64,000 bases of DNA from Psammoneis japonica. Its lineage: Eukaryota. The notes beneath the pieces were generated by a model. The model was given only the letters and a program-made list of their open reading frames with translations. It did not search any database and was not told the DNA's origin. The DNA is taken from assembly GCA_008632985.1 (NCBI GenBank), contig QPGO01000069.1:310001-374000 (forward strand). Reading direction: 5' to 3'. The translations under genes and the position numbers were made by a program. Positions 1-64,000 of this stretch are shown here, in pieces; the first letter of the stretch is position 1; each line of letters starts with the position of its first letter.

Positions 1-3000
1 CTGAAGTGTTCCATGCTGACATGCTGATGCTTTTAGGAGACTGGGGAAGAGAGCTGCAAATGTCCCACACAGCATTGACATGTGGTGGACAAAAATGCTC
101 TCCTCCACAACCTGTCTGTCATGCTCTTGACTCATGCATCCAATTGCAGCAGTGCACTGTGGCTCTCTGGCATTGCCAAAGGCACCCCAAGAGAGCAAAA
201 CAATGTTTTTTTTTCATTTTTTCACAGAGCTGCTGGGCTTGTTGAAATGACTTTCCAAAAGATGCCAGCACACAACATCCAGGGTGGATCTTGTTGCGCC
301 TTTCTTGGCAATGTTGTTGCTGGGGTGATTGTGGTTGAACAAAAATGCATCATCTGACTGCCAGTGAAGACCTTGAACTTGCTTGATCCAGTCAGAAACA
401 AAACCAAATGCAGACAAAACTGTGGGATCCTCAACCAAGCACATGATGCCAATGCCAACACCATTGTGAGAATGTTTCCATCTGGTGCATTGACTCAAAT
501 TTTTTTTTTTCATCATCCTTGTGCATGCCCAGCAATTGATGCTTGGTGAAACCAGAGGAGGAAGAAGACTTGGACACAGAAAAGGCATGACAACCATCCA
601 ACTCTGTCAGATCATCAGCAGGTGTTTGGCTGGCTTTCCTGGAAAGAGCCCGGAAATCCAGATGATCAAGGATGGAATGACCAACATTGACAACATGGAA
701 GCAATGATTGCCGTGGTCACTGTTGGTGAATGGACTTCAAAACTCAAGGCATTGCCAGTGTGATGGAAAGTGGCAATGGACTTTTCCATGTTCTTGGAGC
801 AAGCCATCATGCAGCAACAATGCCTCCCGTCAATGCAAGTGGATGCCCAGCCAATGTCAAGATCAGGCAGCACCAAGTGAGTGCAAATGACATGCTGCAC
901 TGCTGCTCTTGACTTGCCTTCCCCACATTGCACAATTCTGGTGCACTCTTCCAGAAGGCATCTTTGGGTTGCTTGCAGACCATGCCAACATTCTCAAGTC
1001 CTCTCCATTTGCTGGGCAATGATTTGGGGACAGAAGCAGAAGTCTTGGTGGAGACAAGAGAAGGAGCTGTTGCAGAAGATTGAGGCAGACTTTTTTGGAC
1101 TGGTGACCACTTGTTGGCCAAGGCCACTCGTGGGGACAGAGATGGCAGCAGAAATGTCAGAAGCACACCACACAGATGAAATGACATGCACAGGAAGCAG
1201 AGCTTGACTTGGAGCCAACAGAACAGTGAAAGGGAGTGACAAAGACATTGTCAGACCAGATGTGGCATTGAAAAATGAGGGTGGCACATTGAACAATTGA
1301 GCTGGAATGGCAGGAGAGGATGCACCCCCCACAGTGCAAGACATCAAGCTCAAATCAATGCAGGAAGAGACACAGTGGGACAAGGCACCAAATGCAAGGT
1401 TCCACCAAGCACACCTTCTCCTGATCTCTGCAAGATCCCAATCCCACAAAGAAGGATCCAGCTGTTGCACCAAAGCAATGTGTGGGTGCACAGTGGGAGC
1501 GGTCATGGACAGAGTTGTTTGAAGGCAACTGAGACAAGCAAACTGCACCGCTGACTGGGCAGGCATGGGATGAACCCTGGCATCATCATCAGAGAGCCAT
1601 TGAACCATCACAGTTAAAAGATGTCTTGTCTTCTCTGTCAAAGAGCTCAAGCCTGCTCTTTTTGCTGAAAAACACTCAAAATCTTTCCTCTGTCTGTCTG
1701 TGGTGTGATGGGTGAGCAAACAACATGGGAAAGTGACAACTCAGTGAGCTGGCCATGAGCAAGGCAAGGCAGATGGTGGCAAGTTCACTTTTGCTCCATT
1801 GTGGCTTCAACAGTTGACTTGCCAAGAAGAGAAAGGTCTGGGAGCACCAAAAGAGAAAATGCAAACTCAATCAAGAATGTGCAGTGCAGGCAAGCAAGGA
1901 AAAAGCTGTGAGGGCCCAGAAGACAACCTCCATTTCCAATGTCAATTTCTCATTGACAATCAGCAATGCCAATTTCTCAAGTGTTGAAAAACTTGAGGAG
2001 GGTCATTCTCTCAGTTTTGATGATGGTGTGAGTCCAGATGTGCTGTTTGCAGTCAAAGTGCCCACCTGCTTGATGGATTGATCCTGTTCTCACAGAAGCA
2101 CAAGCAACCATCAATGCCTGATGCCAACATGGAAAATTGATGCATGACTCCTGGACTTTCTCTCACTTTGGCAACAACAAGAGGGTGACAAGAGTTGTGC
2201 TCCATTTGTTGACATCCCCAGGAGGGAAGGGTTGTCTGAAACTTTGCAGTGCAGCAGAGAGGAAGTTGTTGGCAACACCCAACACAACATGTTTGGAGCT
2301 GAGCAACCTCAGCTCATGACATTCTGGTGTTTGACCGCATGGGACATGGAGCATTGTTCCAGACACAAAAACCCAGCTTTGCTTGATCATGCCCAGCCAG
2401 CATCCTTCACACAGTGGGGGAGCAACCAAGAGCAAGGTGTCTCAGCAATCAGCATTGAGTCAGGTGACAAATGTGGAATCACGTGCTTTGCAGTCAAGGC
2501 CACACATCTCAAAAACAAGGAATGGGCAGCTTTTGACACCCAAGGGCTGGACACAAAAAGTGCACAAATTTCCCCCCAGTGGCGGCACAAGCTTCCCAGG
2601 TGAACAAAGACTGCCACCTGGCAAAGGTGGAGTGAGTGTTGTTTTTGAGGAGGTCAACAATTTGGAGAGAATTGTTCCTTTTCAATGCCATGGGAGCCAA
2701 AGCAGCAGCCAGAGCTGGTGCTGCTCTCACAGTTGATCAAGCATGGAATTGGAAAACCCGCCAATGAGCAATTTGGGAGAACAGTCACAGAAGGAGGTGG
2801 GCAGCTGTCAGGAGTGGAGAAGGATGGAGGGATCACATGACAGAGTGCACAGGGCATTGTTGGCAGATTGGTTGGGGGAAGAGGAGTCTGTGCAGAGGGC
2901 AGAAAGAAACCAAAGAGCATGAGCAGAGAGATGACATGAGATGTTGCAGCTCAATGTTTGGGGGTTGCCCACAGAGGGGGAGAAGAGGAGTGGCACATGC

Positions 3001-5300
3001 TGCCAACAAAGTGATCGCTGGTGAGGTGGTTCCAGGTGGAGTCACTGGAAGGAAGAAGGGAAGTGGGGAAGGTGTGGGCATGTGAAGAACAGCAGACAGA
3101 GTGGCAGGCATTGGAGCAATGGAGAGCACAGGCAGACTGCCAGGGAGGCTTGGGTTGAGAGTGAGTGGCGGGAAATGAAGAGCTCAAAAAAAAGTGGTGG
3201 AAGAAGATCCCCTTTTGTCAAGCAGAGATTGGGGTTCAGTGCAAAAGAGAGTCACATGGAGGTTGGGTGGTGGGAGAGGGTGGGAGGTGCACAGCAGAGG
3301 GGTGTGGAGGTGAAAAAAGAGGGCCCAAGGCACACACACAGACAGAAGTCTCAAGGAGCCTGATGACAATGAACCTCTCCCAGCAGGAGAATCATCTTTG
3401 TGGACTGGCAATGAACATTCGATGTCAAAGGTTGACTGAATGACACATGACAAAAGCATTTGGTGACTTTTGCTGAGGCATGACCTGCAAACATCTGGAC
3501 CAAGTTGAGCTGGGGACACCAAGAGTTGAACTGAGTGCAGGCTCTTCCAACTCTGTTCATTGCACCTGAAGCAACTGGCATGCCTGCATTGTGTGGCTCC
3601 ATGCATTTAGGGGTGGATTTTGTCACGCTCTTGGCCAGCATGCTTCTTTGTCATGTCTGTCTTTGGCAGCAGCATGTGGACAGTGCTGTGGCATTCACTC
3701 CACTGGCAACACATGCGGCATTGCATGACGCTGTCGGGCACCATTGGATGCCAAGGTGTGTCGTTTGCTCAAGGACACTCTCCTGAATGATTGCAAAGCA
3801 ACAGTTGCCCAGTCTTTGAGATGCTCCAGGAGAAAGAACCCAAGGATGCTTTTGGCCAATGGCAAGCATGACACAGACAAACTCATCATGGCGCAGCCTG
3901 GTGACTTGATCCACTTTCATCAATTGGAGATGATTTGGAACGTGCCACTGGTTTGCTCAGTTCCAAACTCAATCAGTCGGAAATGGTCCATTTTCAAGAA
4001 CTGACTCATGATGGACAGGCCAGGTGTCATTTGGATGAAGCCTCTGCTCTGTCAACAGTTGTGATCATTGGCGACAACCAGATGTGCCAAGGACAAGGAC
4101 CTGTTTTGCCAAAAGGCTGCATTGACGAACCAGTTCCACACATTTGTTCTAGATGCCACAGAATGTTTTCCTCAGTTCATTGCCACAGAGAGGAGCTGCT
4201 GTCCTTCCTGGTGCACAAACAAAGCCATTCAGTGATGCCAACACTTGCCTCATTGTTTCCATTCTTCCACAGTTCATTCTCCGCATCCGAAGTGAGCAAG
4301 GGTTTGGTTCATTGACTGCCGCACAGGTGTTGAGCAAATGCAGAGCAGTCATTTTGCATTGAAGAACCAATCATGCCTGGCACACATTTTGTTCCAGAAA
4401 ACATGAGTCGCAGGGCAGGACCCACTGTCACTTGAACCTTGGCACTTCAAAAAGACTGGCTGCCACATCATTTCAAGTTGGGTTGTCAAACCAGGGTGTG
4501 GAGTGCATTTCCATGTTGACAAAAAGAAGATGAAAAGCAACGTCAGCAAACAAATCTCAAATGAAAAGAAAAATGGACATGAAATTGACTTGCATTGGGG
4601 GTTCATTTGAATGCAACGTAGCACAATGAATGCACTCTATGGCATTGTGAAATGCACAACAAATTCATGCAATGAATCTCTTGCCACCCAAAACGGGTGT
4701 CATGTGGGTGTGACAAGGGATTCAAAGAGTTCTTGGAGCAGTCACGCCAGTTGGAATGGGAGGAGCGTCACCATCATAAATGTCTCAAAACATCATTTGG
4801 TCTGGTCTCCATCTGACACGACCGCTGCCAAACAGTTTTCATTTCAAGAGCAGCAGCCATGGGGATGTAAACTGCAAGGGAGCACAGATGGCAGCAATTG
4901 ATCTCTCTGATGGGCTTGTTGTTTTGGGATTAGATGCCTTGGATGAGCATGAAGGAGAAGTTCAGATTTGGTCTTTGAGGGCACGACATCCGATGCGCCA
5001 ATGGCACGGACACGTTCTTCCACAATGACTTTCTTCTTCACTTGTCTCTCAAACACTCCAAAAGCATCAAATTTCCAAGGTCACTGCACCCGTCATTGCA
5101 ATGTCATTGCCAATCTTGATCATTGACACTCTTTCATGAGCTGCATGCATTGAGTTGTGATGGAGCTTTGTCGGTGTCCATGGGGAAAGCTCAGTTTTTG
5201 ATGACTCTGTTTCAGTGCGAGTGAAGTTTGATCTCAGCACGACAACTCAATGAGCAAGAGGGAAGCAGGCTGAATGACACAAATGTCCAAATGTTTGAAT
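1..5300. mobile_element. Heavily degenerated repeat/TE-like domain depleted of both TpA and CpG; family not recognisable
   Basis: Only on the order of ten TA dinucleotides seen by eye in ~5.2 kb, few CG, strong TG/CA excess; many short overlapping Cys/His/Trp/Gln-rich ORFs with no recognisable domain. Confidence 0.55.
3348..3700 (+). repeat. Diverged copy of segment ~9202-9655 (3' end of F-box-like gene plus downstream flank)
   Basis: gtctcaaggagcctgatgacaatgaacct...gttgactgaatgacac matches gtctcaaggagcctgacgaaaatgaaccc...gtcgactgaatgacac; ctttggcagcagcatgtggacagtgct matches ctttggcaacggcgtgtggacagtgct. Confidence 0.85.
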
Positions 5301-5554
5301 GTTGTTGTGCTGCTGGCAAACTCAACCAGTCCCGCTGCCTCAACCGGTCCCGCCGGCTAACTGACGGATGGCTGCTTGCTTGATTTAAATTCCGAGCGCC
5401 GCTGCTCGCCGCCGCATCAACCCCACAGCGCAATGACAACGCAAGATGCTGGCAGTTTGTTCTTCCCAATGAACAAGCAATGCAATCACACTGCCAAAGA
5501 AAACCACAACACTGAGAGTTGCACCATCACACCTCCAAAGAATGACAAAATGCC

Positions 5555-6400
5555 ATGAGTCATTTTAATGGATTGTCAAGCATTTCGTCGTCGACAGAAA
5601 ATGCCGAAAACGCTGCTGCGAGCAGAAGGTCACAAATGGACAATGCACTCGATTGTTTCCTTGATGCTTCCACAGTTGCTTTGCAGATGCAAGACCAGGA
5701 CAATGCATTGAAAAATGTTAAAAACACTTTGCCAAAAGGGAGTAAAGTGACCAAGCGGAAATTGAAGGAAGCCAACGACCAGCTGGCGTTGGTGCAAAAC
5801 AGCATCTCCATTTTGCAAGTGGCAACAAAAGGAGCAACTGTGGCAGCTGCTCAAGCTTCTAGGATTCCCAATGTTGGACATGTCCACAACTGCTTGAACA
5901 GCAAAAGTGTGTGCGCAAGAAGCGAGTGGAAGAGCAACCAAGAAAAAACCAGAAGCCGTTTCCATCGCAAGAATCAAGCGCCGCACCGGCAGGTCAAAAA
6001 CCTGTGCCGGCAAAATCGGAATCCCTCATTGCATTGGAGGACATGTGCAAAGAAAATCAGCAGCTGCAACCAGAGACTCGTGCCCAAAACAAAAGACCTT
6101 GTCTCATGCCGTCATCTCATTTTCATGAAAACTTCCGAATGCCAACAAAAAAGGAAACAGGATTGTGCGGAAAATTTAAATTTGTCGACATGGTCCTGGC
6201 CATTCCCACATCAAAGCGCGCCAAAGTCATTGATTTTGCAATGGAAAACTCGATGATTCCATTGAGCAGCCGACGAGGGGCCAACAGGATCATCCAAAAG
6301 CGATCGAACGGCGCAGCCATGCACTCGGAGTGGGGCGCTTGTCCCGCAACTTCACGGTTTTTGGTTTGCCCCGTGCCATGCGCGGCCTTCACACGTCACG
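5555..6400 (+). pseudogene. Frameshifted, TA-depleted coding relic of unknown (possibly TE) protein
   Basis: Overlapping ORFs 5555-6256 and 5911-6423 read as protein-like (coiled-coil then KFKFVDMVLAIP...EWG), with no Tyr residues. Confidence 0.3.
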
Positions 6401-7550
6401 CGTCTCGCGCCACACCGCAATGACGACACACGACACTCTCATCACTCCAACTTGAAACTGCGCCGCGGCTCATCACTGGCCAGTTGTGCGCTGCCGGTGC
6501 CGGCAGACCCACATGAGGTGCTCCTCGCCGTCGATCATGACATTCTCCTGCCTCAGCATGCGGCAGTGTTGAAGGCAGAAAGAACAAAATTGAAAGGCAG
6601 AAAAGAAAAGGACCGACATGAGCATGCTGACGGCTCATTTGAAAAAGCGCAAGGCAGATGAGGAAGTGAGGGATCAGAAGATTCCTTCATTCAAAGCCTC
6701 AAAGAAACGTCTCAACGACGACACATCTGGAAGCAACGAAACGGAAACAGGTGACATCAGCTTGTTTCTGTCATCGCTTTCTATCGTCGCTGACAACGGC
6801 TGGCTTTCTGCGCAGCATCTTTGTCGCCTGGAATCGACCTCAAAAGCAACACAAGCATGGGTGAAAGACGATCACTGGAAAGTGGTTTGTTGCCTGCGTT
6901 GGCCCAACACGGCTGTTTTTTCCAAAGAGCATGTCCGTGATTTTGGAGGCTACAGAATGTGGTTCCGTCACAGGGCCGCCTCGTTGGTGCGGGAGAACGT
7001 GGATGCTAGACCACTCCCGCCTCCTACGATCGATGTAGAGCAAGTCAGGTTTCTAGTTGACATTTCGGTTTGCGGGAAATCGGTTTGTTCAAAATCTGTT
7101 ATGTTGAGCCCTGAAGGATGGAGACTTTGGTCTGAAAGCGGAGGTTTCGGGTTTCATTTAGAATCTCCTTTTATTGTCGGAGAAGCCCGCTGTTGGCGTG
7201 AGGGTGTGGACGGGCGTCGTTGCAATCATGGATGCAAATTCAATCCTCGTCAATGTGATGCTCGGATCCACCTCATGCGCTGTAAGGAAGAGTGGTCACC
7301 ACCTTTTTGCGTCTGTCAATCGGGAAGGAAGAATTGGATTCGTGCATTCTCAGCTGACAGTGTTGGTGAACCTCAAGACGGCATGTACGATTGGAAGAAC
7401 TCGTCAAAAGAATGGCTTGAATGTGACTCTGATGATCCTGCTTCCCATGACCATCATGGATGTCTGATGATGAGTGACACGCAAATGTCCAGAAGAGTTC
7501 AGCAACGACTGGGAAGCCCAATGCGTTTTTCGATGTGTCTTGCGCTCAAT

Positions 7551-8306
7551 GGAGTGGCGTGCTTTCAAAAATTCGGTGCGCACACCTGATCTGCACAAAA
7601 CACACGTACGTAAAAATGCACTGCAAAATTCGTAGAGATGTTTGTTTGAATTCACTTCACACACAAACATCACGGCAACGACGCCGCGACATCGGCAATG
7701 GACGCACACAACAACGACAGCGGACTGGGGGGTTGTGATGCACCGAGACAACAACTGATGTGATGAGAAATGAGGTGTCAATGTCAAATGACAATGATCG
7801 AGTTGTTTTGGGAGCTGGTTGAGCCATTGGTGACGAAGGGTTTTTGGCACGTACAACTTGGTGCTGAAATCACGCAGAGGTTTTGGCCGCGGTGGGACTG
7901 TTGTTTTTCACTTTTTTTGGGGTGCATTTTGTGTTTTCTCGGTCGATCGCATTGATGAAGCACTGAAGTGAGCACGCGACAACAGATTTTGACGAAAAGT
8001 TGGATTTTCATTCATTGTGGAGGATCAGCACGGGGTTTTTAACACGGTGAAGCACGGGGGGACGATTTTTTCACCAGATTTGCAAGATCCTGCATCCCAT
8101 CCAATTCGCGTGCGCAATGTCAGTGGATTGATGTATTTTTCATACGCAAGAAGCGCAATGACGTCGACATGCCCGACATGACAGACTTCCCGTGCTGTTG
8201 TCGTAATGAAGTGAAATCTTGTTGTGTTCGGTGCGCAGAGTCTAGTGCTGTTTGTCCGCATGCAGACGAGTGCTGCGCACCGCACTTTTGGAAAGTGCGC
8301 CACTCC
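7551..8306. mobile_element. MITE-like non-autonomous DNA transposon, copy 1 (~756 bp)
   Basis: ~33-bp imperfect terminal inverted repeats GGAGTGGCGT(G/A)CTTTC...CGGTGCGCA; flanked by AT on both sides; no credible ORF. Confidence 0.85.
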
Positions 8307-8308
8307 AT

Positions 8309-9063
8309 GGAGTGGCGTACTTTCAAAAATTCGGTGCGCACACCTGACCCACACAAAATGTGCGCACGTAAAAATGTCCTACAAAATTCGTAGAGATGTT
8401 CATTTGAATTCACTTCACACACAAACATCACGGCAACGACGCCGCGACATCGGCAATGGATGCACACAACAACGACAGCGGACTGGGAGGTTATGATGCA
8501 CCGAGACAACAACTGATGTGACAAGAAATGAGACATCAATGTCAAATGACAATGATCGAGTTGTTTTGGGAGCTGGTTGAGCCATTGGTGACGAAGGGTT
8601 TTTGGCACGTACAACTTGGCACTGAAATCACGTAGAGGTTTTGGCCGCGGTGGGACTGTTGTTTTTCACTTTTTTTGGGGTGCTTTTGTGTTTTCTCGGT
8701 CGATCGCATTGATGAAGCACTGGAGTGAGCACGCGACAACAGATTTTGACGAAAAGTTGGATTTTCATTCATTGTGGAGGATTGGCACGGGGTTTTTAAC
8801 ACGGTGAAGCACGGGGGGACGATTTTTTCACCAGATTTGCAAGATCCTGTATCCCATCCAATTCGCATGCGTAACATTAGTGGATTGATGTATTTTTTAT
8901 ATGCAAGAAGCGCAATAACGTCGATGTACCCGACATGATAGACTTCCCGTGCTGTTGTCATAATGAAGTGAAATCTTGTTGTGTTCGGTGCGTAGAGTCT
9001 AGCACTGTTTGTCCGCATGTAGACGAGTGCTGCGCACCGCACTTTTGGAAAGTACGCCACTCC
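8309..9063. mobile_element. MITE-like element, copy 2, head-to-tail with copy 1
   Basis: Colinear with 7551-8306; termini GGAGTGGCGTACTTTC / GAAAGTACGCCACTCC are perfect inverted repeats; AT at 8307-8308 and 9064-9065. Confidence 0.85.
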
Positions 9064-9945
9064 ATGTGATTGAGCCGGGGGACAAGATTGCAGTTGCTGG
9101 TTTTGAAATCAACCTCTTTTGTGTCAATGACGGCAACTGGTTGGATTTTGACTCTGAGGCTGCAGAGGAGAAGGGCGTCTCTGTGTTGCATGTCATGGAG
9201 AGTCTCAAGGAGCCTGACGAAAATGAACCCCCCCCAGCCGGGGAATCATCGTTGTGGACGGACGAAGAGCATTCGATGTCGAAGGTCGACTGAATGACAC
9301 ACATGGCAGAAGTCTCTGGTGACTTTTGCTGAAGCAATTCGAGTGGTTTCGGCAAAACTTGCGCGTTGCCAACTTTGTGTGACAGCGTTGGAACGAAATC
9401 ACATTCAAAGGCGAACCGCATCTCGGCGGCCCAGTGTGCACCTACAGTGTGACCTTGAAATCTCTGGAGCGACTTGAACTAGGGATGCCGAGAGCTAAAC
9501 TAAATGGGGACTTTTCTGTTCATTTCACACGAAGCAACTGGTGCATGCCCACATTGCACGGCTCTGTGCATTTAGCGGCGGCTCTCGCCACGCTCTTGCA
9601 GCACGCTTCTTAGTCATGTCTTTGGCAACGGCGTGTGGACAGTGCTACAGTACTCTTCCTCTCAAAAGCTTTCGTGGGCTGCTACTCTCGCTCCGTTTAG
9701 TCCCTCGCTATTAGCCCAACGGCCTCGAAGTTTCTTGTCAGTAGTGACTGTCAAATCTTTGCCGTGCTGGTGACTACTAGAGTAGACCGGAGAACTGGAA
9801 CTAGCGTGGCGGCAAAAGAGATTTGGTCGTGACTCCCATCTTGGGGAAAATCAGATAATTTTACTTCTACTACACAGAGCTGAACTAATGTTGCTTCTTC
9901 TATTCTTACAACTCGAAGCAAGTTGTACAACTCCTCCTCTACGCC

Positions 9946-11127
9946 TTACATGCCTCCCGCCATCATCTGCTGCAGCATGGCAGGGTTCATTCCTCCTCCC
10001 ATGCCACCCATACCACTCATCATGCCTTCAATCATGTTGAGCATACTCGGAGGCGGCTGAATGTTGAAGTATGACTTTCCAATCTTGGTCGTGTACGTTT
10101 CGACAATCTGCGGCTTGTACATGACGTGGAGTTCCTTCTTGAAGGACCGAAGGAGCCACGAATAGAGAGGACCCGTCTTGGTATCCTTTTCACACACCCT
10201 CAAGAGCATGCAACCAAAGACAACGTGAGACGGGGACTTGCCATCGTCCTTTTTCATGTACGACTTGGTAAGATCGTCCATGGGTCGGTCTTCGACCTTT
10301 TCAATAAAGCCCCTTAGCAAAATGTTGGCGTCACGCAAATTCTCCACGGCGCAAAACAACAAGAGACTGCGAGTCAAGAGTGCATCACGATCCGCCGGGG
10401 GACACGTGTGTCCCATTTCCAATTCCTGATCCGTGGGCTTGGGAAGCGACTCGAGCCACGACAAGATCTGATCTGGCTTTTCGGCCAACACCATGTTTGT
10501 CACGGCATCACACTGCAGTGCATCACACGACTGTCCGTCCTCCTCATCGTCTACCATGTCATCGGCACCCTCTTCTTCTTCTTGTGCAAGCAGGGACAAC
10601 TTCCAGCATTGGTGTCCCATGAGTTCCAACAAGCGTTGATCTCCGAGTCGGATCTTTCCCAAATCGGCAGACCATTGAATGGCTCTTCGGAGAAAATCCC
10701 GTTCAAGTCGTTCCAATCGATTCCGTTCCGCCTTGGACGCAATGTCCGATTCATCCAGAGCTGTTTGTTGCGCCTGATGCAATTCGACAAGACGTCCAAT
10801 CCATTCGTCCGTCGCTTCTGTATGAGTCTCTCGCAACGCCTCCACCAAACACGTCAAGAGCTGAGATGCGACGGACACGCGATGATTCTTGAGAATGGTC
10901 AAACTGCCCTGGTAGGCCAAGTCGGTAGCACCGGCGTAATCTCCAGCCTTGACGCGTTTGCGAACCTGAGACTGAGCGAGCTGCAACGCTTCGTATGCAG
11001 TGGCTTCGTCCTTGAGATTCTCGCCCTCGAGCAATTCCTTTAGACGAAGGGATACCGCATCCTGACTGTTTTCGTTCTTTTTGCGAGCTTCCAACTGCTT
11101 ACGACGACGAGCTGCGGCGGCACTCAT
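9946..11127 (-). CDS. GET4: Golgi-to-ER traffic protein 4 (Get4/TRC35) homolog
   Basis: YEALQL..., FLRRAIQWS...GDQRLLELMG, ..TKIGKSYFNIQPP.. with Met/Gly-rich tail; start chosen at MSAAAARRRK. Confidence 0.75.
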   Translation of the reverse strand: MSAAAARRRKQLEARKKNENSQDAVSLRLKELLEGENLKDEATAYEALQLAQSQVRKRVKAGDYAGATDLAYQGSLTILKNHRVSVASQLLTCLVEALRETHTEATDEWIGRLVELHQAQQTALDESDIASKAERNRLERLERDFLRRAIQWSADLGKIRLGDQRLLELMGHQCWKLSLLAQEEEEGADDMVDDEEDGQSCDALQCDAVTNMVLAEKPDQILSWLESLPKPTDQELEMGHTCPPADRDALLTRSLLLFCAVENLRDANILLRGFIEKVEDRPMDDLTKSYMKKDDGKSPSHVVFGCMLLRVCEKDTKTGPLYSWLLRSFKKELHVMYKPQIVETYTTKIGKSYFNIQPPPSMLNMIEGMMSGMGGMGGGMNPAMLQQMMAGGM

Positions 11128-11536: not shown

Positions 11537-13059
11537 ATGAAGACACCCAGTGTGTTCAAAAAGAGCTTGGGAGCTTTGGCCTTTTTGATTTTGTTTCTTC
11601 CGCTGCACAAGTTTTTTTCATGGTTGCCTTTCATCAAACGACTTCTGCTGCCGCCGACCAACAACAAACAGCCCTGTCGTCCATGCTGGAGCAAAGCAAA
11701 ACAACAACAACTATACACGACGTTACAACAAGAAAGATGGAACCTTTAATGGATTGTATCTCATGTATAGAGAGCCACTCCCCACGTCTCATGCACACTG
11801 TGTGGGAGAAAACTATCGAGAACATTCTTGGATTGGGCGGTCTTGTGACTTTCGATACTTGTGTTTCGATACGAGCAACACGAGTTTGTTTTGTTTCGAT
11901 CCGAAATTGAAGCCAAGCTCACAAAGCCTTGGGAGCGACCAATCATAACTTTACGGATGTTCCACACAATATCGAATGATTCTCACGTTTCGATAGGAGG
12001 CATCAATTTGAAATGGAACAAGAGGGATATGACCGACTCAAGTGGTTTCCCAAGATTGTGGATGTTGAAAGCATGACGGAACAAACGGGCTTTTATGAAT
12101 TGCCATCGGATGTGGTTTGGATTCCGATTCATTCGCTTGCCGGATACAATCCCGGTCATTTAGTTTGGGACGACCTTTTGCCGACCTATACGTTGCTGTC
12201 CATGTTTATGCACTTGGACGACAAGAAGCGTCCACTCTTGATGCGAATGGTTCTAAGAGACCCCCTCTGGGCTTCATGTGACTTTGAACCAAAAAAGAAG
12301 CTCTGTCAAACCATGATTCGAAAGTTTATTCCAATGATGGGTATGGATCCGACTTCGTTTAGTACCTTTCATGACTTTGCATTCAACACCACCAACGGTG
12401 AACCACCCAAATCAAAGTATGTTTGTGCTCGACACGGAGCAGCCGGTATTGGAATGTTGACTGATCACGGAACCAAGTTGCATGGATGGAGTCATGAGGA
12501 TTATGAAACGACACACAATCACGGACGAGCTGCAAATTTTTATCAATTTCGAAACTTTTGTTTACAGAATTTGGGCATACCCGTCAAGCCAGCCAATGCC
12601 AAACCGCCATTTAAGGTTACCTTTTCCGTGAGTTCATCGGCACGTGCCGTTGGAATATACGGTAATTTGGATCATCAAATTGACGCTGTCGAAAAGGCCT
12701 TTCGTGGTGAGGAGGTGATTGTACAAAAGTACAAAATGAGTGACCTTTCGTTAAAAGAGCAAGTACAGATTGCAGCCGACTCGAACATATTCATCACCAT
12801 GGCGGGAGGGGGTGCGGTCACTGCGTTTTTCCTTCCCAAGGGGTCGTCTTTGATTTTGTATTATGATGAGATGGGTGGGGTTCACAGAGGTAGACCAAAC
12901 AAGCGTCCCGCCAGATTGGACTGGGACATTTTCAACAATGCGGCACACATTTCAGCCCATTGGCTCCCGCTTCGAACATTCAAGAAAGACGAGGATGTTG
13001 AGGCCTTGGTTCAGCTGATACGATATGAACTCGACAGCATAAAGGCACTGTCCCAATGA
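11537..13059 (+). CDS. Putative glycosyltransferase (GT61/DUF563-like), type II membrane; frameshifts in 5' part
   Basis: N-terminal TM, HCVGENY...RSCDFRYLCFD, NPGHLVWDD, SLKEQVQIAADSNIFITMAGGGAVTAFFLPKGS. Confidence 0.7.
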
Positions 13060-13499: not shown

Positions 13500-15089
13500 A
13501 TGGTTGGAATACGAAACGGTATGTTCTGAAGCAAGTGTGCGCAGAAGGGATCTTGATCTCGGCGCTTCTAACTGTCGATTACGTTGTTTCTTTCTGATCA
13601 GGAATCGTCTTTGGTCTCTTGGCGGTATTGGGGCTAGTGATTGCTATTGGAGAGCTTTTTTACCTTCATTCTCAGTATTCGTTTCACGATGAATTACACC
13701 ATCCGCCGCCGCTCGTGGAGAAGAGCGAGAATCATCAATCAGTTCCAATCATCGCGGCTGAGAATGCACCAAAAGACGGGACTTTTAACGGTTTGAATAT
13801 AGCATACAGGAAGGGAAACATCACTTCTAGTGTACACTGTGTTGGGGAAAATTACCAAGCAGACTCATGGATGTATCGATCCTGTGACTTTCGAAATCTG
13901 TGCTTTGACACTGAGCAACACGAGTTTGTCTTGTTTCGCTCCTCCAAAGAGTCGGCCTTGTACGAGGCCCTGAACAAAACCCAACATGAATACATAGATA
14001 TCTCCACCACATCACATACCAACGTTTCTCTTGGTGGCATTAATCCAAAGTGGGTAAACGAATGGGATCGAATGAAATGGTTTCCACAAATGATCGAGAC
14101 GGACGAATTGGAGAATGTGGGCTACTATGAATTGCCTTTGAGTACGGTTTGGATTCCCTTCCATTCTCTTGCCGGCTTCAATCCCGGACATTTGGTGTGG
14201 GACGACTTTTTACCGATATTTACACTGCTTTCCATGTTTTCGCACGTTCAAGACAAGAGACAACCCTTGATGATGCGCAAGGTTATGCGACCCTATCTTT
14301 GGGCAACATGCGACAACAAGGAAAGCAATACGATAACATGCCGCGCCATGTTTCGAAAATTTTTACCCATTATGGGTATCAATCCCGACTCGTTTAGCAC
14401 CTTTGACGATTTCATGTTCAACACAACGGATGACGACTCGGCTCCACGATCAAAATATGTTTGTGCTCGACACGGTGTCGCCGGAATCGGAATGCTGACG
14501 ATCACGGAACCAAGTTGCATGGATGGAGTGCCGAGGATTATAAAACTACCCATAATCATGGACGAGGTGCCATCTTGTACCAATTTCGAAACTTTGTGCT
14601 GACCAACTTGGGTATTCCAATCAAGCCGGTGATTGCAGAACCTCCCTTCAAGATTACCTTTTCCATTAGCTCGTCGGCTCGCCCAAATCGCAACGTTGAC
14701 ATGAAGACTCAAATGGATGCAGTCCGAAACGCATTCCCTAATGATACTGTTATTGTGCAGGCCTTTAAAATGAGCGATCTTTCCTGGCAGAACAGGTCAA
14801 AATTGCAGCCGAGTCAACCGTTTACGTGACGGTTTGTGGCGGTGGTGCAGTGACGGGGATATTTCTTCCACGGGGATCAAGTTTGATTGTGTTTTACGAT
14901 GAAAAAGGTAGCTTGGAGGGCAACAGAAAAACTGGACTTCCTGCACGGCTCGACTGGGATGTTCTCAACAATGCTGCGTATCTCCGAACGCATTGGTTTC
15001 CCACTAGAAGCATGTCTACTCAAAATGACATTGACGCTCTTGTGGAGCTGATACGTTACGAAATCGATCTGATGCGATTAAATCAATGA
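13500..15089 (+). CDS. Tandem paralog of GT61-like glycosyltransferase; probable intron ~13519-13601; frameshifts near 14500 and 14790
   Basis: Same motifs as 11537-13059 (HCVGENY, NPGHLVWDD, DHGTKLHGW, ARLDWD) spread over three ORFs. Confidence 0.7.
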
Positions 15090-53546: not shown

Positions 53547-54536
53547 CTAAAAAGGGTTATTCGTCTTTCTTGTCGATGGCAATAACAGTCTCCGAGTAGC
53601 GCCTGTTATTCGTTCGCGTATCATCATGAGCAGAGCGCTCTTGAGCAACGTGTGAAATAACTGTAAGTCGAGCCCTTTATAACACGCCCGTATACCGCCG
53701 TGATTATTGTATTGTTCCTTTAGGCAGTCAAACATGCTACTCTGAGATGTCACCATTAGCATAACCTTGGCTCTGATTAGAGGATATGTTGCCATGATTG
53801 CAACAAACTTGGCAACGAGTCCCATAACAAAGGCCTCGCCCATGGATAACTTTTCACCGTGCCGGCTTCGTAATCTCCGCGCCTTGATAAGATCAAACAC
53901 CGTGAAATTTATCGAGGGATTGCTACAAAGCATCAACGACGGCCAAAGACCTTTCCATAAAGAGGTTATTTCCGGGACATATGGTTTTTCTTTTGAGCTT
54001 GGTAGCTCGATCGCTTCGCAGTGGTCATCTTTCTTTTCCTCCACAATTTCCGAGTGGTCTTCTTCTTCTTCGGTAGCATCGTGAAAGGTTTCTTCATCTA
54101 GCTGGTCCCAAACTTTCTGCATTGTTTCAGAGCTTGTCAATTGCTCTGTTTTGTTGCCTTTCTTTGTTTGGTGTTGTGTTGCGATCACGTCCAATGGAAG
54201 AGTCATGCATGTATTTAGCATCGCAGCAACTGCCGACAAGAGTAAATGCGTGGAAGTTGATATACCCTCTCCTCGTCTCTTTTTTCGTTGTGCCCACCAT
54301 GCTGATAACCAAGAGTATAAATAAAAATAGCAAAAGCTAGAGGATATTGTGTGCAGCGTTTTGACGGGGAGACCACGTAAAAGGTCCATGTCTTTGGTGT
54401 TCCGTGAACCACGATGTGACGCTTGAATGTTAATCTTCCAGACGTCTAACGGCCAGAAAGCCCATAGCGAAACAACTGATCCAACTACACCGGCCAAGGC
54501 ATCTGCAACGGCTTCTCGTCTTCGTTCATGTATCAT
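53547..54536 (-). CDS. Mitochondrial-carrier family protein, peroxisomal adenine-nucleotide/PMP34-like
   Basis: WPLDVWK, LPLDVIAT, YPLIRAK carrier signatures; LWKGLWPSLMLCSNPSINFTVFD. Confidence 0.8.
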   Translation of the reverse strand: MIHERRREAVADALAGVVGSVVSLWAFWPLDVWKINIQASHRGSRNTKDMDLLRGLPVKTLHTISSSFCYFYLYSWLSAWWAQRKKRRGEGISTSTHLLLSAVAAMLNTCMTLPLDVIATQHQTKKGNKTEQLTSSETMQKVWDQLDEETFHDATEEEEDHSEIVEEKKDDHCEAIELPSSKEKPYVPEITSLWKGLWPSLMLCSNPSINFTVFDLIKARRLRSRHGEKLSMGEAFVMGLVAKFVAIMATYPLIRAKVMLMVTSQSSMFDCLKEQYNNHGGIRACYKGLDLQLFHTLLKSALLMMIRERITGATRRLLLPSTRKTNNPF

Positions 54537-55052
54537 TTCGGGCACAGAATTAGGGTAGCGGGGACCTTTACTACTTCACAAGCACAGCGTCGTCATGGTC
54601 GTGCTTGTTTTGAGCGTCGCACCACGTACTTTTCGCGGGAACCCGGACTTCCATTTGAAGGGCACGCGCGCGCTGCGCGAGCTCGCTCTGCTTGTACCGT
54701 AGGGCCCTACCGTGCACTTGAGTATTTATGATGAGTTGAAATTTTGTACGCACAGTTGCCCCACATGCGATACATCGATGGAAAGCTGAGAGTCTGCTCA
54801 TTCCGTGGGGGGGGNTAGCGAAACAACTGATCCAACTACACCGGCCAAGGCATCTGCAACGGCTTCTCGTCTTCGTTCATGTATCATTTCGGGCACAGAA
54901 TTAGGGTAGCGGGGACCTTTACTACTTCACAAGCACAGCGTCGTCATGGTCGTGCTTGTTTTGAGCGTCGCACCACGTACTTTTCGCGGGAACCCGGACT
55001 TCCATTTGAAGGGCACGCGCGCGCTGCGCGAGCTCGCTCTGCTTGTACCGTA
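54465..55052 (+). repeat. Exact ~237-bp direct duplication (54465-54701 / 54816-55052) next to an N
   Basis: Identical sequence tagcgaaacaactgatcc...cttgtaccgtag restarts immediately after the N at 54815. Confidence 0.9.
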
Positions 55053-55464
55053 GTAGTCTAGACTATGGCTAACGAGAAATGATCGACATGGATTTTTGTT
55101 TCACTTGCTACTCTACCATACTGTACTCAACGACTCTAGTTGATAATTAGTTCTCAAGGAAAGACCTCTTCCATGGTTCTTCCGAAGACCAGCAGAGAAC
55201 TCCTAGCGACACAGAATGAGGTATGAGAGATACGAGTACAGGCCTGTTAGAAAACCCCAAGTACGTGATCTGACTTGAATGAAAATCTGTCGTAGCCTCA
55301 CCATGTTATAAAGTTAGAACCACCAACCTTAGCTGCGAATAAAATTAATCCCGTTTTATCTGACGTTGTCAGACGTAGACTGCGACATAGAGATTGAAAT
55401 AAACAACAATCCTTTGAACTCTCTAGCTAGGCTCCCCAACCACATGAGGTAGCTGCTTCGTGTT

Positions 55465-60837: not shown

Positions 60838-61135
60838 GGTGGTGGTATTCGTTCCTAATTCCTAAGCGCAAGACCGAATAGACGCAGAAATGCAGAACGC
60901 AATGTACTGTGGAGGTTGGAGGTAGACGGAAAGAATACAACTCGGGGTGCAACTGTGTAGGTTCTAGTACTTCTCCTACGGCGTAAGTTGAGAACTCGAG
61001 CGTCACCAGGAAAGCACAGACACCGACTTCCGCTACATCAACCTGCAGCACCCTCCAAGACGCGCAGCAGCGCGCAGCCGCAGCGGAGACAAGAGACAAG
61101 AGACAACCAAAAAAGGACGTCTCGAATGAACTGCG

Positions 61136-61384
61136 NNNNNNNNNNNNNNNNNNNNNNNNNNNNNNNNNNNNNNNNNNNNNNNNNNNNNNNNNNNNNNNNN
61201 NNNNNNNNNNNNNNNNNNNNNNNNNNNNNNNNNNNNNNNNNNNNNNNNNNNNNNNNNNNNNNNNNNNNNNNNNNNNNNNNNNNNNNNNNNNNNNNNNNNN
61301 NNNNNNNNNNNNNNNNNNNNNNNNNNNNNNNNNNNNNNNNNNNNNNNNNNNNNNNNNNNNNNNNNNNNNNNNNNNNNNNNNNNN
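61136..61384. other. Assembly gap (N run)
   Basis: Run of N. Confidence 1.
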
Positions 61385-61979
61385 GTGGTGCTGGCGTCGA
61401 GTTCATTCCGTCAAGGCTGATTTGTCGCAAGGCACCGTGCACAAATTGTGAGAATGGAGCATCAGCATCACGGATTTTTGTGATGCATTTATGTATCTTT
61501 GGTGTTGTTTCTCACTTCTTGTCATTTATTCGATGTTTGTGCTGCAAGGTTCTGTGGTGATTGGCTCTGTTCCGCTGACTTGCTCTTCGGAACTTGTCGT
61601 TGAACAATCGAACTGCGTTTCAAGTGGAACTGATGATCAAGAGTTGGCGGCGGTGATGTCTCAACGTCCCTTTGGCCGATTTTCGCGGTTCTTGTTTCAT
61701 TCTCAACGGCAATTGTACAAGGAATCCGACAGGCTTGGCTTTGTTGTGCAAAATTTCATTCCATGGAGATGGATTTGTTGAATGTCGATCGGCACCCAAG
61801 GCTGCTTCAATTGGAAGGGACGCTCCCGCAATGTTTTGGATTGAAAAAGGAATGCCGCAATGAAGCCCTGGACATGTTCACATGCAACATGAACATTGAA
61901 TGTGGCATGTGCACACAAACAAACATGAACTGACACGGAATGCAATCGCCGTCTGACCCCTTCATTCTTTCTGCTGCCG

Positions 61980-63938
61980 CTAAACCTGCAGCAATGGACT
62001 CAGACTGTTGTTGCGCTTGTCGTGTTTCAATGCATTGACAATCTGAGTCACTGGTTTTGATGCACCACAAACCTGACACACACGATCACAAGCCACCTGG
62101 GCACTCAATCCAGCTCGGACAAGCCCAGCCACCACGTCCCATGGAACCTTCCTTCTGCGGCACTTGTGCTTGACTCGACCGCGCTCTTCTCTGGTGAAGT
62201 CTTGTGCTGCTTTCCTTCCACCAATTCCATTCTCATGCTTTTGCCACAGAATGTGAATGGTCCTTGGATTTGGGCCAAGGGTGCTCTCATGCGGGACGTG
62301 GTTTGGATTGTTGTTGTTTGCACCTTGCTGAGGCGGGACGTTTCCTGCAGCTTGTTGGTTGCCTTCCTGGTTTCGCGCAACTCCAAATGCAGGCTGGGAA
62401 GCAAGGCGTCGCACATTGCATTCTACATTTGCAAGTCGACGCTCCAGCTGTGCATGATGATCATCAGAGCAGGCTTTGAGCTCCTCCATGACGCGACGCA
62501 ATGATCTCACCTCGGAGTGCATCGCAAGCAATGGATTTCGATCGACAAGCCCACGGCCGGCTGCGACGCCCCCATTCTGAGCGCCATTCCCCCCATCATC
62601 AACATCCACCACTTCATTGAAATGCACCTCAGCATCTTCACCAGTCACCACCATCAATGCTTTTTTAATTGGATTCTCGCCGACCGGCAGTTGATGAACT
62701 CCATTGCATGCTTGGAGAATGCGTTCTCTTAGATGTTGCGGAAGGTGCCAGCTTTCTTCTGAGAAAGCAAACCACAGCAGTGCTTTCCCAAGCACCAAAG
62801 CAATCTCAGCACCAAATTTGTTGTTTGTTGCTGGCGCCACATGCTCCAATAAAAAATCATTTGAAACTGGCCTCCAACACAGAGTGCTGAGGCAACCTTG
62901 GCATCCGGCCACGGCAACTCTACGTCATCATACAAATCCGACATGCGCTTGGACATTTTCCAACGGCCACGACAGTCCTTCTCATCTTTTTGGCACCCAT
63001 TGTTGCGGGCACGCGTTGAGCCATACTTTCTGTCACTGTGTGAGCCAACCAGTCCTTTGGTGCTTCCTGTTGCAGCAACAAATTCTGGATGAATGTACAC
63101 TTCGTTTGTGAGTGTCTTGGTGACTGCATCCTTCACCTTTTCTCCTCCTTCTGGCACACGAAGGTCATTGGTTAATCCAAAAATGCAAGGTGCACGTTCT
63201 GCGGCACCTCCTACACTGTGGAACACTTCCAGCCAAATTGCCAAGCCAAGCAAAGAACAAAACTGTGGGTCCAGCATTGCCCCAAAGAGAATTTGGTTTG
63301 GGGCATCTCTTCTTCCAGACAGTTCTTTGACCAATTTGGCCTTGCCCGCAGGGTGAAGTCATTGGCTGGATGGGGGGTGAAATTGTCATTAAGAAACTGC
63401 GTGCAATCATCGATTCGACCAATCATGTGAACCTGAAACCGGGACAAGCTTGGCATGAGATGCTTCCGCAGCATGGATTGGTCTGGTTTTCCTCGAGCAT
63501 TTTGATTTGAGCCCGGTGCTCCTCATCTTTCAATGGTCGTCTCTTTTTTGACGGTGCGCCTCTGTTCCGAGTTTCCTCTTTCTTGACCTTTTTGATGAGT
63601 TTGTTTGCATCGGTTGATCATGTCGGGTTGCCTTGGTTCGATTGAACATTCCACGGCATCAACCGGTTTGGCACGCAGCTGGAAATCGCCTTCTTCCAGC
63701 ATTCCAACAAACTTGACCTTGCTTGCTTGGGCAAGTCTTCTTTGCCTGGTTCGGGCGTTCCACACGCCTTTAGATTCATCCACCGCTTGACATCATCGGG
63801 GGTCATTTGAAGCAGCCTCTGGTTGGTGAACTCTTGCTCACATTGACAAGTCACCCCATCAAGAAATGACATGAGTGCCATCAAGGTTGGCTTGCAATCA
63901 TTTTTAGATGGCATGGTCTCCATTGCATTGTTGCACAA
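61980..63938 (-). mobile_element. Degenerate Crypton-like (CryptonS-type) tyrosine-recombinase transposon with C-terminal GCR1_C-like domain
   Basis: GSHSDRKYGSTRAR..GC.KDEKDCRGRWK...YDDVELPWPDAKVA (HxxR, W, catalytic Y); N-terminal WKKAISS...GNPT; C-terminal LWQKHENGIGGRKAAQDFTREERG..RRKVPWD; several frameshifts. Confidence 0.75.
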
Positions 63939-64000
63939 ATCGATCAGAAACGCGATGTTCCATGCAACAAATCGGTTGTTTCAATGCGGAAAAATTTCCC

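What the first reader, a model, noticed from the sequence alone, without database searches (positions are those of the whole stretch)
7551..9063. Tandem MITE copies give the direction and context of the mutation
Seen: aligning the two copies by eye, the large majority of differences fall in pyrimidine-purine steps. TA vs TG: gcgtac/gcgtgc, ctaca/ctgca, gttatg/gttgtg, caataac/caatgac. TA vs CA: cgtaga/cgcaga, tgtatc/tgcatc, gataga/gacaga. Reciprocal TG vs CA: aaatgtgcg/aaacacacg, ttcattt/tttgttt, ggcact/ggtgct. Most CpGs are shared and intact. Polarity: copy 2 has perfectly complementary TIRs (GCGTACTTTC / GAAAGTACGC), whereas copy 1 has GTGC at both ends, which breaks complementarity. The simplest explanation is ancestral TA with two independent TA->TG changes. 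Copy 2, nearer the gene-rich boundary, keeps more TA, suggesting a gradient.
Basis: seen in the sequence. Interest (0 to 1): 0.85.

Follow-up and report, generated by a model that had tools for sequence, protein, structure and literature searches.

The report
TA-erasing mutation in tandem diatom transposons
Two side-by-side copies of a small mobile element in a diatom genome differ almost only where TA has been rewritten to TG or CA, and other copies of the element show TA was the original state, so the pair records a rare TA-targeted mutation process at the edge of a TA-free stretch of DNA.

Summary
Two 757/758-bp inverted-repeat elements lie head to tail at 7550-8307 and 8308-9064. They differ by 47 substitutions, 46 of them transitions, and one indel. 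41 of the 47 fall in pyrimidine-purine steps; the null mean is 25.3, and 0 of 20,000 simulations reached 41.

The proposed polarity, ancestral TA changing to TG or CA, is supported.
- Contigs of other family copies were laid on copy 2. The element's depth is about 300-5000 against 57.7 in the flank.
- Those contigs carry the TA-making letter at 8 of the 11 TG-versus-CA doublet sites, at 93% or more of depth for 4 of them.
- They carry CG at 2 of the 4 CG-variable sites.
- No listed row contradicts TA.

Copy 1 lost 25 of 34 visible TA sites and copy 2 lost 12. Sites lost in one copy only split 14 to 1 (p=0.001). CpG is intact, with 45 sites shared.

The pair sits at the edge of a 7-kb island with TA observed/expected of 0.00-0.09. 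A gradient is plausible but weakly supported.

The signature matches TpA hypermutation measured in Bigelowiella natans in a 2026 preprint. This scan has already noted it on other DNA of this genome. The chemistry is unknown.

The parts
7550..8307 (+). Copy 1 of the inverted-repeat element (758 bp), on the island side. It has 9 TA and 49 CG and has lost 25 of the 34 visible ancestral TA sites.
8308..9064 (+). Copy 2 (757 bp). It has 22 TA and 45 CG and has lost 12 of the 34 visible TA sites. It also carries 4 CpG decays, 2 other A:T>G:C changes and a 1-base deletion of its own.
7550..7566 (+). 5' terminal inverted repeat of copy 1, with TG where copy 2 has TA (7560-7561).
8291..8307 (+). 3' terminal inverted repeat of copy 1, with TG at 8296-8297. 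Read in repeat orientation this is CA, so the two arms no longer pair here.
8308..8324 (+). 5' terminal inverted repeat of copy 2, 17 bases perfectly complementary to 9048-9064. Weaker complementarity runs to about 34 bases.
9048..9064 (+). 3' terminal inverted repeat of copy 2. A single-copy contig covers 9037-9200 with 0 differences and so ties the TA state to the unique right flank.
6594..7549 (+). Upstream part of an open frame interrupted by the pair. It has no homologue and no Pfam family. TA is depleted but CpG is normal (6001-7549: TA rho 0.13, CG 0.94).
9065..9293 (+). Downstream part of the same frame. Removing 7550-9064 joins it in frame for 75 more codons to a stop.
1..7000 (.). 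TA-free island with TA observed/expected of 0.00-0.09 per kb. The 1-5000 stretch has also lost CpG (0.05-0.30), and TG+CA stands at 1.4-1.9. No protein family was recognised in its frames.
3347..3687 (+). Island copy of the segment 9201-9646. It has TG/CA at 13 of the outside copy's 15 CG steps and at 3 of its 4 TA steps, with none the other way.

Best explanation
A multi-copy, non-coding inverted-repeat transposon (MITE-like, about 757 bp) sits twice in tandem inside an orphan open frame. The site is the edge of a DNA domain that a TpA-specific A:T-to-G:C mutation process has stripped of TA.

Shown:
- Nearly all differences between the copies are TA versus TG/CA.
- The original state was TA.
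- Both strands are hit equally and without runs.
- CpG is almost untouched.
- The island-side copy has lost about twice as many TA sites as the other.

Inferred: the changes arose in place, one site at a time over many events. Per site they came roughly 90 times faster than at other bases and about 10 times faster than CpG decay. This uses 37 events over about 90 site-copies, which assumes about 45 ancestral TA sites per copy with roughly 11 concordant losses unseen, against 4 over 98 and 6 over about 1300. The activity would be tied to the silent or repeat domain and would reach a few kb beyond its CpG-poor core.

The chemistry is not shown. I take enzymatic deamination of the adenine in 5'-TA-3' to inosine, read as G at replication, as the most likely route. 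That is the route proposed for the same signature in Bigelowiella natans. A thymine modification at TpA that mispairs with G is the main alternative. The confidence given is for the direction, the TpA specificity and action on DNA in place; for adenine deamination as the chemistry I would give about 0.4.
For: Context and excess:
- 41 of 47 substitutions lie in pyrimidine-purine steps, against a null mean of 25.3 with 0 of 20,000 draws reaching 41.
- 37 of those 41 are of TA type and 4 of CG type.

Polarity:
- Family contigs carry the TA-making letter at 8 of 11 doublet sites, 4 of them at 93% or more of depth. They carry CG at 2 of the 4 CG-variable sites.
- The state shared at high depth among tens of copies is expected to be the unmutated one.
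- TG and CA at one site can both be reached in a single step only from TA or CG, and no CG is listed at a doublet site.
- The four repeat arms read TA, TA, TG and CA. That needs 2 changes from TA, 4 from TG and 6 from CG.

Regional direction:
- The adjoining 7 kb holds 1, 1, 0, 1, 6, 6 and 3 TA per kb at unchanged G+C of 0.46-0.52.
- An island copy of a segment found outside has lost 3 of 4 TA and 13 of 15 CG, with 0 reverse cases.

Asymmetry between the copies:
- TA sites lost in one copy only split 14 to copy 1 and 1 to copy 2 (p=0.001).
- By other changes copy 2 is not the younger copy. It has 7 private changes (2 substitutions, 4 CpG decays, 1 deletion) against 1 in copy 1.

Both strands:
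- Copy 1 shows 13 TG against 12 CA outcomes in 13 runs (shuffle p=0.50).

Precedent:
- Mutation-accumulation lines of B. natans show almost exclusively TpA>TpG/CpA changes confined to integrated viral DNA (preprint 10.64898/2026.01.13.699255; abstract and passages read).
Against: - No whole family copy could be retrieved. No genome is held, both metagenome scans found nothing and the window holds no further copy.
- Polarity therefore rests on a truncated table of contig differences, with 40 rows shown and 74 hidden. Three doublets (8359, 8361, 8875) and two CG sites (8867, 8902) have no listed row.
- At 8784 the TA letter is a minority in run X1 (68.5 of 440.1). At 9003 it is 43%.
- Losses in the two copies are not independent, since 11 or more sites are hit in both and only 1 in copy 2 alone. 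Some changes may therefore predate the tandem state.
- The 250-bp TA profile is not monotonic: 0.44 at 7001-7250, 0.14-0.20 at 9001-9500 and 0.07 at 10501-10750.
- The island was not shown to be transposon-derived here. 0 of 19 frames scanned in 1-6661 reached a Pfam cut-off, nor did the frames at 994-1740 and 5546-6256.
- No enzyme, modified base or de novo mutation was observed. Adenine deamination is an inference.
Confidence: 0.75

Rival explanations
1. The direction is reversed. The variable sites were CG or TG/CA, and cytosine deamination (RIP-like CpA>TpA plus methyl-CpG decay) created the TAs, so copy 2 is the more mutated copy.
For: All but one substitution are transitions. TG-versus-CA doublets are also what independent deamination of the two strands of a CpG would give. 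Tandem duplicates are the classic substrate of fungal RIP (recalled). Four sites are CG in copy 1 against TG/CA in copy 2, and at two of them the family confirms CpG decay in copy 2.
Against: - Family contigs show TA, not CG, at 8 of 11 doublets and usually at most of the depth.
- 45 CpGs are intact in both copies, which does not fit 11 CpGs deaminated in both.
- The neighbouring island is TA-free at normal G+C rather than TA- and AT-rich.
- Copy 2 is still below the window's background in TA (rho 0.40 against 0.60).
- The repeat arms need 6 changes from CG against 2 from TA.
Confidence: 0.04
2. The direction is TA>TG/CA, but the difference between the copies says nothing about position. The two elements inserted separately into the same AT, came from source copies already mutated to different degrees or arrived at different times, and the 'gradient' is a coincidence of two data points.
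For: - A single shared AT lies at the junction and at both flanks. That is what a second insertion into the first element's target duplication would leave.
- Other family copies are polymorphic TA/TG/CA at the same sites, for example 9003 at 43% and 8784.
- Sites lost in copy 2 are nearly a subset of those lost in copy 1.
- The fine TA profile is noisy.
Against: - At every listed site with a near-fixed family letter, one of the two copies still has that letter.
- By non-TA changes copy 2 is not younger, with 7 private changes against 1.
- Within copy 2 the lost TA sites lie towards the island (median offset 221 against 577.5, p=0.045).
- The unique DNA left of the pair is TA-poor as well (rho 0.13 with CG 0.94).
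Confidence: 0.2
3. The pattern and direction are the same, but the altered base is the thymine of TpA and not the adenine. An oxidised or otherwise modified T made by a TET/JBP-type enzyme on silenced DNA (5-hydroxymethyl- or 5-formyluracil) would mispair with G and give T>C.
For: - In dinoflagellates 5hmU is enzymatically made and enriched on repeats, and it silences transposons. Older work cited there found it preferentially in TA and TC dinucleotides (PMC11572971, passages read).
- Here the 3 polarised changes outside pyrimidine-purine steps (8348 T>C, 7730 A>G, 8723 A>G) all read as T>C at TpC on one strand.
- TC/GA is slightly lower and CC/GG slightly higher in the island core than in the background (1.06 against 1.16, and 0.98 against 0.88).
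Against: - Three sites have a chance probability of about 0.04, and the dinucleotide shift is small.
- Base-resolution mapping in Breviolum found no motif for 5hmU (PMC11071213, one passage read).
- No 5hmU is known to me in diatoms (recalled, not searched).
- On a palindromic TpA the two chemistries give identical footprints, so the sequence cannot separate them.
Confidence: 0.2
4. The differences are assembly or sequencing artefacts of a collapsed or mis-polished repeat.
For: The window has gaps (N at 54815 and 61136-61384) and a 238-bp perfect duplicate beside one of them. The family is high-copy, which invites mis-assembly.
Against: - Errors would not be 46 of 47 transitions confined to TA/CG steps.
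- 37 laid contigs of run X1 match copy 2 at 99% or more. One contig covers 9037-9200 without a difference, linking the TA-bearing repeat arm to the unique flank.
- That run may be the assembly's own data and so is not independent.
Confidence: 0.02

Closest known systems
TpA hypermutation of integrated giant-virus and virophage DNA in Bigelowiella natans (Mettrop et al., bioRxiv 10.64898/2026.01.13.699255; abstract and passages read)
   Same: Almost exclusively A>G/T>C changes, confined to TpA and giving TpG or CpA according to strand. The process is local to foreign DNA while the rest of the genome is spared. Its long-term footprint is TpA depletion with CpA+TpG enrichment in clustered 1-kb windows.
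   Different: - That case was measured directly in mutation-accumulation lines of a chlorarachniophyte and on viral inserts. This one is inferred from copy comparison in a pennate diatom, on a small DNA transposon and the unique DNA beside it.
- Depletion here is far deeper: TA rho is 0.01 in the core, against 0.45 for the B. natans viral region.
- Here the core of the island has also lost its CpG.
- The preprint does not mention diatoms (0 occurrences).
Repeat-induced point mutation (RIP) of Neurospora and other fungi
   Same: Transition-only hypermutation of duplicated or repeated DNA in a dinucleotide context, which inactivates transposons and can leak into adjoining unique DNA (recalled).
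   Different: - RIP turns C into T, mainly CpA>TpA, and so creates TA and lowers G+C. Here TA is destroyed and G+C is unchanged.
- RIP marks are strand-coordinated within an event (recalled). Here TG and CA outcomes alternate without runs.
Methyl-CpG decay (5-methylcytosine deamination)
   Same: A palindromic pyrimidine-purine step decays to TG/CA on either strand, slowly and site by site, in silenced DNA. It is present here as a minor component: 4 sites in copy 2, and CG rho of 0.09 in the island core.
   Different: It acts on CG and not TA, and runs G:C>A:T. In the two copies 45 CpGs are intact while 25 and 12 TAs are gone, so TA loss here does not depend on CpG loss.
ADAR-type A-to-I hyperediting of inverted-repeat transcripts
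   Same: A>G changes with a preference for a 5' U/T neighbour, and inverted-repeat elements as substrates (recalled).
   Different: ADAR edits RNA, so fixing the change in DNA needs reverse transcription. Here a DNA transposon, its unique flank and a whole domain are affected on both strands, which points to action on DNA in place. ADARs are known from animals only (recalled).

Membership tests
MITE / non-autonomous terminal-inverted-repeat DNA transposon | Terminal inverted repeats | tested here: met
   Copy 2 has 17 perfectly complementary terminal bases, with weaker pairing to about 34.
MITE / non-autonomous terminal-inverted-repeat DNA transposon | Small size and no coding capacity | tested here: met
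   The copies are 757/758 bp. All 6 frames scanned inside the pair were below Pfam cut-offs, the best at E=0.079. Frames are long only because TA-containing stop codons are scarce.
MITE / non-autonomous terminal-inverted-repeat DNA transposon | Many dispersed copies with different flanks | tested here: met
   Contig depth over the element is about 300-5000 against 57.7 in the flank. At least five different sequences follow the element's right end.
MITE / non-autonomous terminal-inverted-repeat DNA transposon | Target-site duplication of defined length | tested here: inconclusive
   AT stands left of copy 1, between the copies and right of copy 2. All right flanks seen in other copies also keep at least ...CCAT. 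AT is therefore either a fixed 2-bp target duplication or the element's own last bases. Left flanks of other copies were not seen.
TpA-specific A:T>G:C hypermutation (as in Bigelowiella natans) | Changes are almost only A>G/T>C | tested here: met
   Once polarised there are 37 TA-type events and 3 further A:T>G:C changes, against 4 CpG decays (G:C>A:T). Three substitutions remain unpolarised, one of them the transversion.
TpA-specific A:T>G:C hypermutation (as in Bigelowiella natans) | Changes are restricted to TpA, giving TpG or CpA | tested here: met
   37 of the 40 A:T>G:C changes are at TpA. Copy 1 shows 13 TG and 12 CA outcomes.
TpA-specific A:T>G:C hypermutation (as in Bigelowiella natans) | Confined to foreign or repeat DNA, with the rest of the genome spared | tested here: inconclusive
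   TA rho is 0.01-0.13 at 1-7549, 0.18 and 0.40 in the copies, and 0.60 at 12-60 kb. The island's origin was not identified, and unique DNA of the interrupted frame is hit too.
TpA-specific A:T>G:C hypermutation (as in Bigelowiella natans) | Ongoing and measurable as new mutations | not testable with these tools
   This needs mutation-accumulation lines or population resequencing of the species.
Repeat-induced point mutation (RIP) | C>T at CpA (or CpG) that creates TpA and lowers G+C | tested here: not met
   Family contigs put TA as the original state. The mutated domain is TA-free at G+C of 0.46-0.52.

The most novel reading that the evidence does not exclude
TA erasure is the mutational shadow of an epigenetic mark placed symmetrically on palindromic TpA in silenced chromatin. 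The mark would be a modified thymine such as 5hmU, or a modified adenine, just as CpG decay is the shadow of 5-methylcytosine. It would spread a few kb from repeat cores into neighbouring DNA and would decay about ten times faster than methyl-CpG. TA-depletion maps would then be a fossil record of the reach of silent chromatin in diatoms and perhaps across the SAR lineages.
Probability: 0.15. Interest if true: 0.85.

Novelty: new member of a known kind. Interest (0 to 1): 0.62.

Why it matters
Local, context-specific A:T-to-G:C hypermutation of DNA is nearly unknown. I found one report, in a chlorarachniophyte, and none for diatoms in six full-text searches.

This tandem pair is a compact natural experiment, and it adds three things.
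- Polarity comes from an outgroup, namely other family copies, and not from assumption.
- It separates TA loss from CpG loss: 45 CpGs are intact while 25 and 12 TAs are gone.
- It gives rough relative rates per site, TA much greater than CpG, and CpG greater than other sites.

It also shows that both strands are hit singly without runs. That argues for slow site-by-site decay on duplex DNA and against a single burst on one strand.

If the process is a genome defence, it would be a second, chemically opposite counterpart of RIP, in a major group of marine primary producers.

Tried and rejected
- The whole genome is not held, so the planned consensus of all copies could not be built.
- Two metagenome scans, one with the terminal repeat and one with the most conserved internal stretch, found 0 loci.
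- The scan's sequence index held no look-alike of the element, and there were no earlier notes for this window.
- Tandem Repeats Finder missed the pair because the period exceeds 500 bp.
- The interrupted frame P0001 has no homologue among 489 scored candidates and no Pfam family. The planned check of Tyr>Cys/His against relatives was therefore impossible.
- The Atlas search of a galactokinase-like frame gave only bacterial clusters and no help with taxonomy.
- Pfam found nothing above cut-off in 22 frames scanned from the two TA-poor islands or in 6 frames of the element.
- A solo-LTR reading was considered because of the TG...CA ends. I rejected it because there is no 4-6-bp duplication, the inverted repeat is 17-34 bases long, and no common internal continuation follows the end.
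- A Helitron reading was considered because the insertion lies between A and T. I rejected it because the element has inverted repeats and its ends are not TC...CTRR (recalled motif).
- Run X3 gave no laid contig. That is no evidence of anything.
- Strand clustering of outcomes was tested and not found.

Full report
**What is there.**
- Positions 7550-8307 and 8308-9064 are two head-to-tail copies of one element, 758 and 757 bp long and 93.7% identical.
- Each copy ends in inverted repeats. In copy 2 the terminal 17 bases pair perfectly, and weaker pairing runs to about 34 bases.
- The element has no recognisable coding capacity: 6 of 6 frames scanned were below Pfam cut-offs.
- It is highly repeated in the source organism. 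Contigs of three coded runs from one sample were laid on 8308-9200 at 80% likeness. The element's depth was about 300-5000 against 57.7 in the right flank, and at least five different sequences followed its right end.
- I therefore accept 'MITE-like inverted-repeat transposon'.
- The target duplication stays open. AT stands at both flanks and once at the junction, and every right flank seen in other copies keeps it.
- Removing 7550-9064 joins the open frame 6594-7549 in phase to 75 further codons ending at 9293. The pair therefore probably interrupts a former coding frame.
- That frame has no homologue and no Pfam family.
- The neighbouring GET4-family frame has its best named relatives in pennate diatoms at 58-66% identity. 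This supports the 'diatom' label of earlier scan notes.

**The observation.**
- The copies differ by 47 substitutions, of which 46 are transitions, and one indel.
- 41 of the 47 lie in pyrimidine-purine steps. Random placement gives a mean of 25.3, and 0 of 20,000 draws reached 41.
- By step, as copy 1/copy 2: TG or CA/TA 14; TA/CA 1; TG/CA or CA/TG 11; CG/TG or CG/CA 4. Shared steps are TA 8 and CG 45.

**Polarity.**
I could not fetch whole copies: no genome is held, both metagenome scans were empty and the window has no further copy.
- The table of letters in which family contigs differ from copy 2 still answers much of the question.
- At eight of the eleven TG-versus-CA doublets the family carries the letter that makes TA, and no change is listed at the partner base:

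| Site | Family support for the TA-making letter |
|---|---|
| 8350 | 4 of 4 contigs |
| 8401 | 1064.8 of 1128.6 depth |
| 8620 | 1533.2 of 1645 |
| 8926 | 1200.7 of 1283.4 |
| 8522 | in part |
| 8534 | in part |
| 8784 | in part |
| 9003 | in part |

- One contig of depth 476 differs from copy 2 in 102 bases at three places only, and each of those turns TG or CA into TA.
- A state shared at high depth among tens of copies should be the unmutated one, because independent hits give private, low-depth variants.
- TG and CA can both be reached in one step only from TA or CG, and no CG is listed at any doublet.
- At 8461 and 8960 the family has CG at full depth, so two of copy 2's four CG-type differences are ordinary CpG decays. 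No row is listed for the other two (8867, 8902).
- None of the 40 listed rows contradicts TA at the 14 sites where only copy 1 has changed.
- Limits: 74 rows were not shown, three doublets have no row, and at 8784 the TA letter is a minority in run X1.
- Parsimony on the four repeat arms (TA, TA, TG, CA) also favours TA, with 2 steps against 4 from TG and 6 from CG.

**Context.**
- The first 7 kb of the window hold 1, 1, 0, 1, 6, 6 and 3 TA per kb (observed/expected 0.00-0.09) at G+C of 0.46-0.52, with TG+CA at 1.4-1.9.
- CpG is also nearly gone at 1-4 kb, but it is back to normal from about 6 kb.
- A second TA-poor stretch lies at 61-64 kb.
- A segment outside the island (9201-9646) has an older copy inside it (3347-3687). 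The island copy has TG/CA at 13 of 15 CG steps and 3 of 4 TA steps, with none the other way.
- A process that creates TA cannot produce a TA-free domain, so the regional evidence agrees with the family evidence.

**What the pair adds.**
- There are 34 visible ancestral TA sites. Copy 1 has lost 25 and copy 2 has lost 12. Sites lost in one copy only split 14 to 1 (binomial p=0.001).
- CpG is essentially untouched, so TA loss does not ride on CpG decay here.
- Allowing for about as many concordant double hits as discordant ones gives roughly 45 ancestral TA sites. That is about 0.4 events per TA site-copy, against 0.04 per CpG and 0.005 per other base. These are my arithmetic and are rough.
- TG and CA outcomes are balanced in copy 1 (13 and 12) and show no runs (p=0.50). 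This differs from strand-coordinated deaminase bursts and fits many single events on duplex DNA.
- The three changes outside pyrimidine-purine steps that could be polarised are also A:T>G:C, and all read as T>C at TpC. The sample is far too small to lean on.

**Gradient.**
- At the kb scale, TA observed/expected rises from 0.05 through 0.19, 0.34 and 0.48 between 6 and 10 kb.
- The island-side copy is the poorer in TA.
- Within copy 2 the lost sites lie towards the island, at median offset 221 against 577.5 (Mann-Whitney p=0.045).
- Against this, the 250-bp profile is noisy and there are only two copies.
- A difference in age is unlikely, because copy 2 carries more private non-TA changes (7 against 1).
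- Separate insertion of differently mutated source copies cannot be excluded.

**Mechanism.**
- Shown: the dinucleotide, the direction, the symmetry between strands, the independence from CpG, and the confinement to a domain and its edge.
- Inferred: action in place on DNA, and the chemistry.
- I favour deamination of the adenine in TpA. This was proposed, with an ADAT2-like candidate, for the same signature in Bigelowiella natans.
- A thymine modification is a live rival. In dinoflagellates an enzyme-made 5hmU marks and silences transposons and was reported to prefer TA and TC. Base-resolution mapping in Breviolum found no motif, however.

**Novelty.**
- The signature is known from one 2026 preprint on an unrelated alga.
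- I found no report for diatoms in six full-text searches.
- This scan has already recorded the same process on other pieces of this genome, so this locus is not a first sighting.
- Its value is as a clean, outgroup-polarised natural experiment.

Noticed in passing
window 1-7000 and 61000-64000: There are two TA-poor islands. The first has a core (1-4 kb) that has also lost CpG (rho 0.09) and a rim (about 5.5-8.3 kb) that has lost TA only. So the two depletions have different reach. No Pfam family was found in 22 frames scanned.
   Followed up: partly
window 3347-3687 versus 9201-9646: A segment covering the 3' end of the interrupted frame and the DNA downstream of it is duplicated inside the island, at 84% and 74% identity and without the 113 bases 9337-9449. 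The island copy has lost 13 of 15 CG and 3 of 4 TA.
   Followed up: yes
window 7548-7549, 8307-8308, 9064-9065: AT flanks both copies and stands once at the junction, and all right flanks of other family copies seen keep it. This could be a fixed 2-bp AT target duplication, which I do not know from any described superfamily. It could equally be the element's own terminal bases.
   Followed up: partly
window 8348, 7730, 8723: The three polarised changes outside pyrimidine-purine steps are all A:T>G:C and all read as T>C at TpC on one strand. The island core has slightly less TC/GA and slightly more CC/GG than the background. This may be a secondary target of the same process.
   Followed up: partly
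window 54465-54702 and 54816-55053, N at 54815: A 238-bp perfect duplicate stands on either side of a single N. It is probably an assembly join artefact.
   Followed up: no
window 11783-12869 and 13822-14902: There are two tandem paralogous frames at 68% DNA identity. The first carries a glycosyltransferase-61 domain.
   Followed up: no
window 8580-8702 (table 5): One family contig skips 121 bases of the element, and depth varies more than tenfold along it. Deletion derivatives or related families therefore share parts of the element.
   Followed up: no
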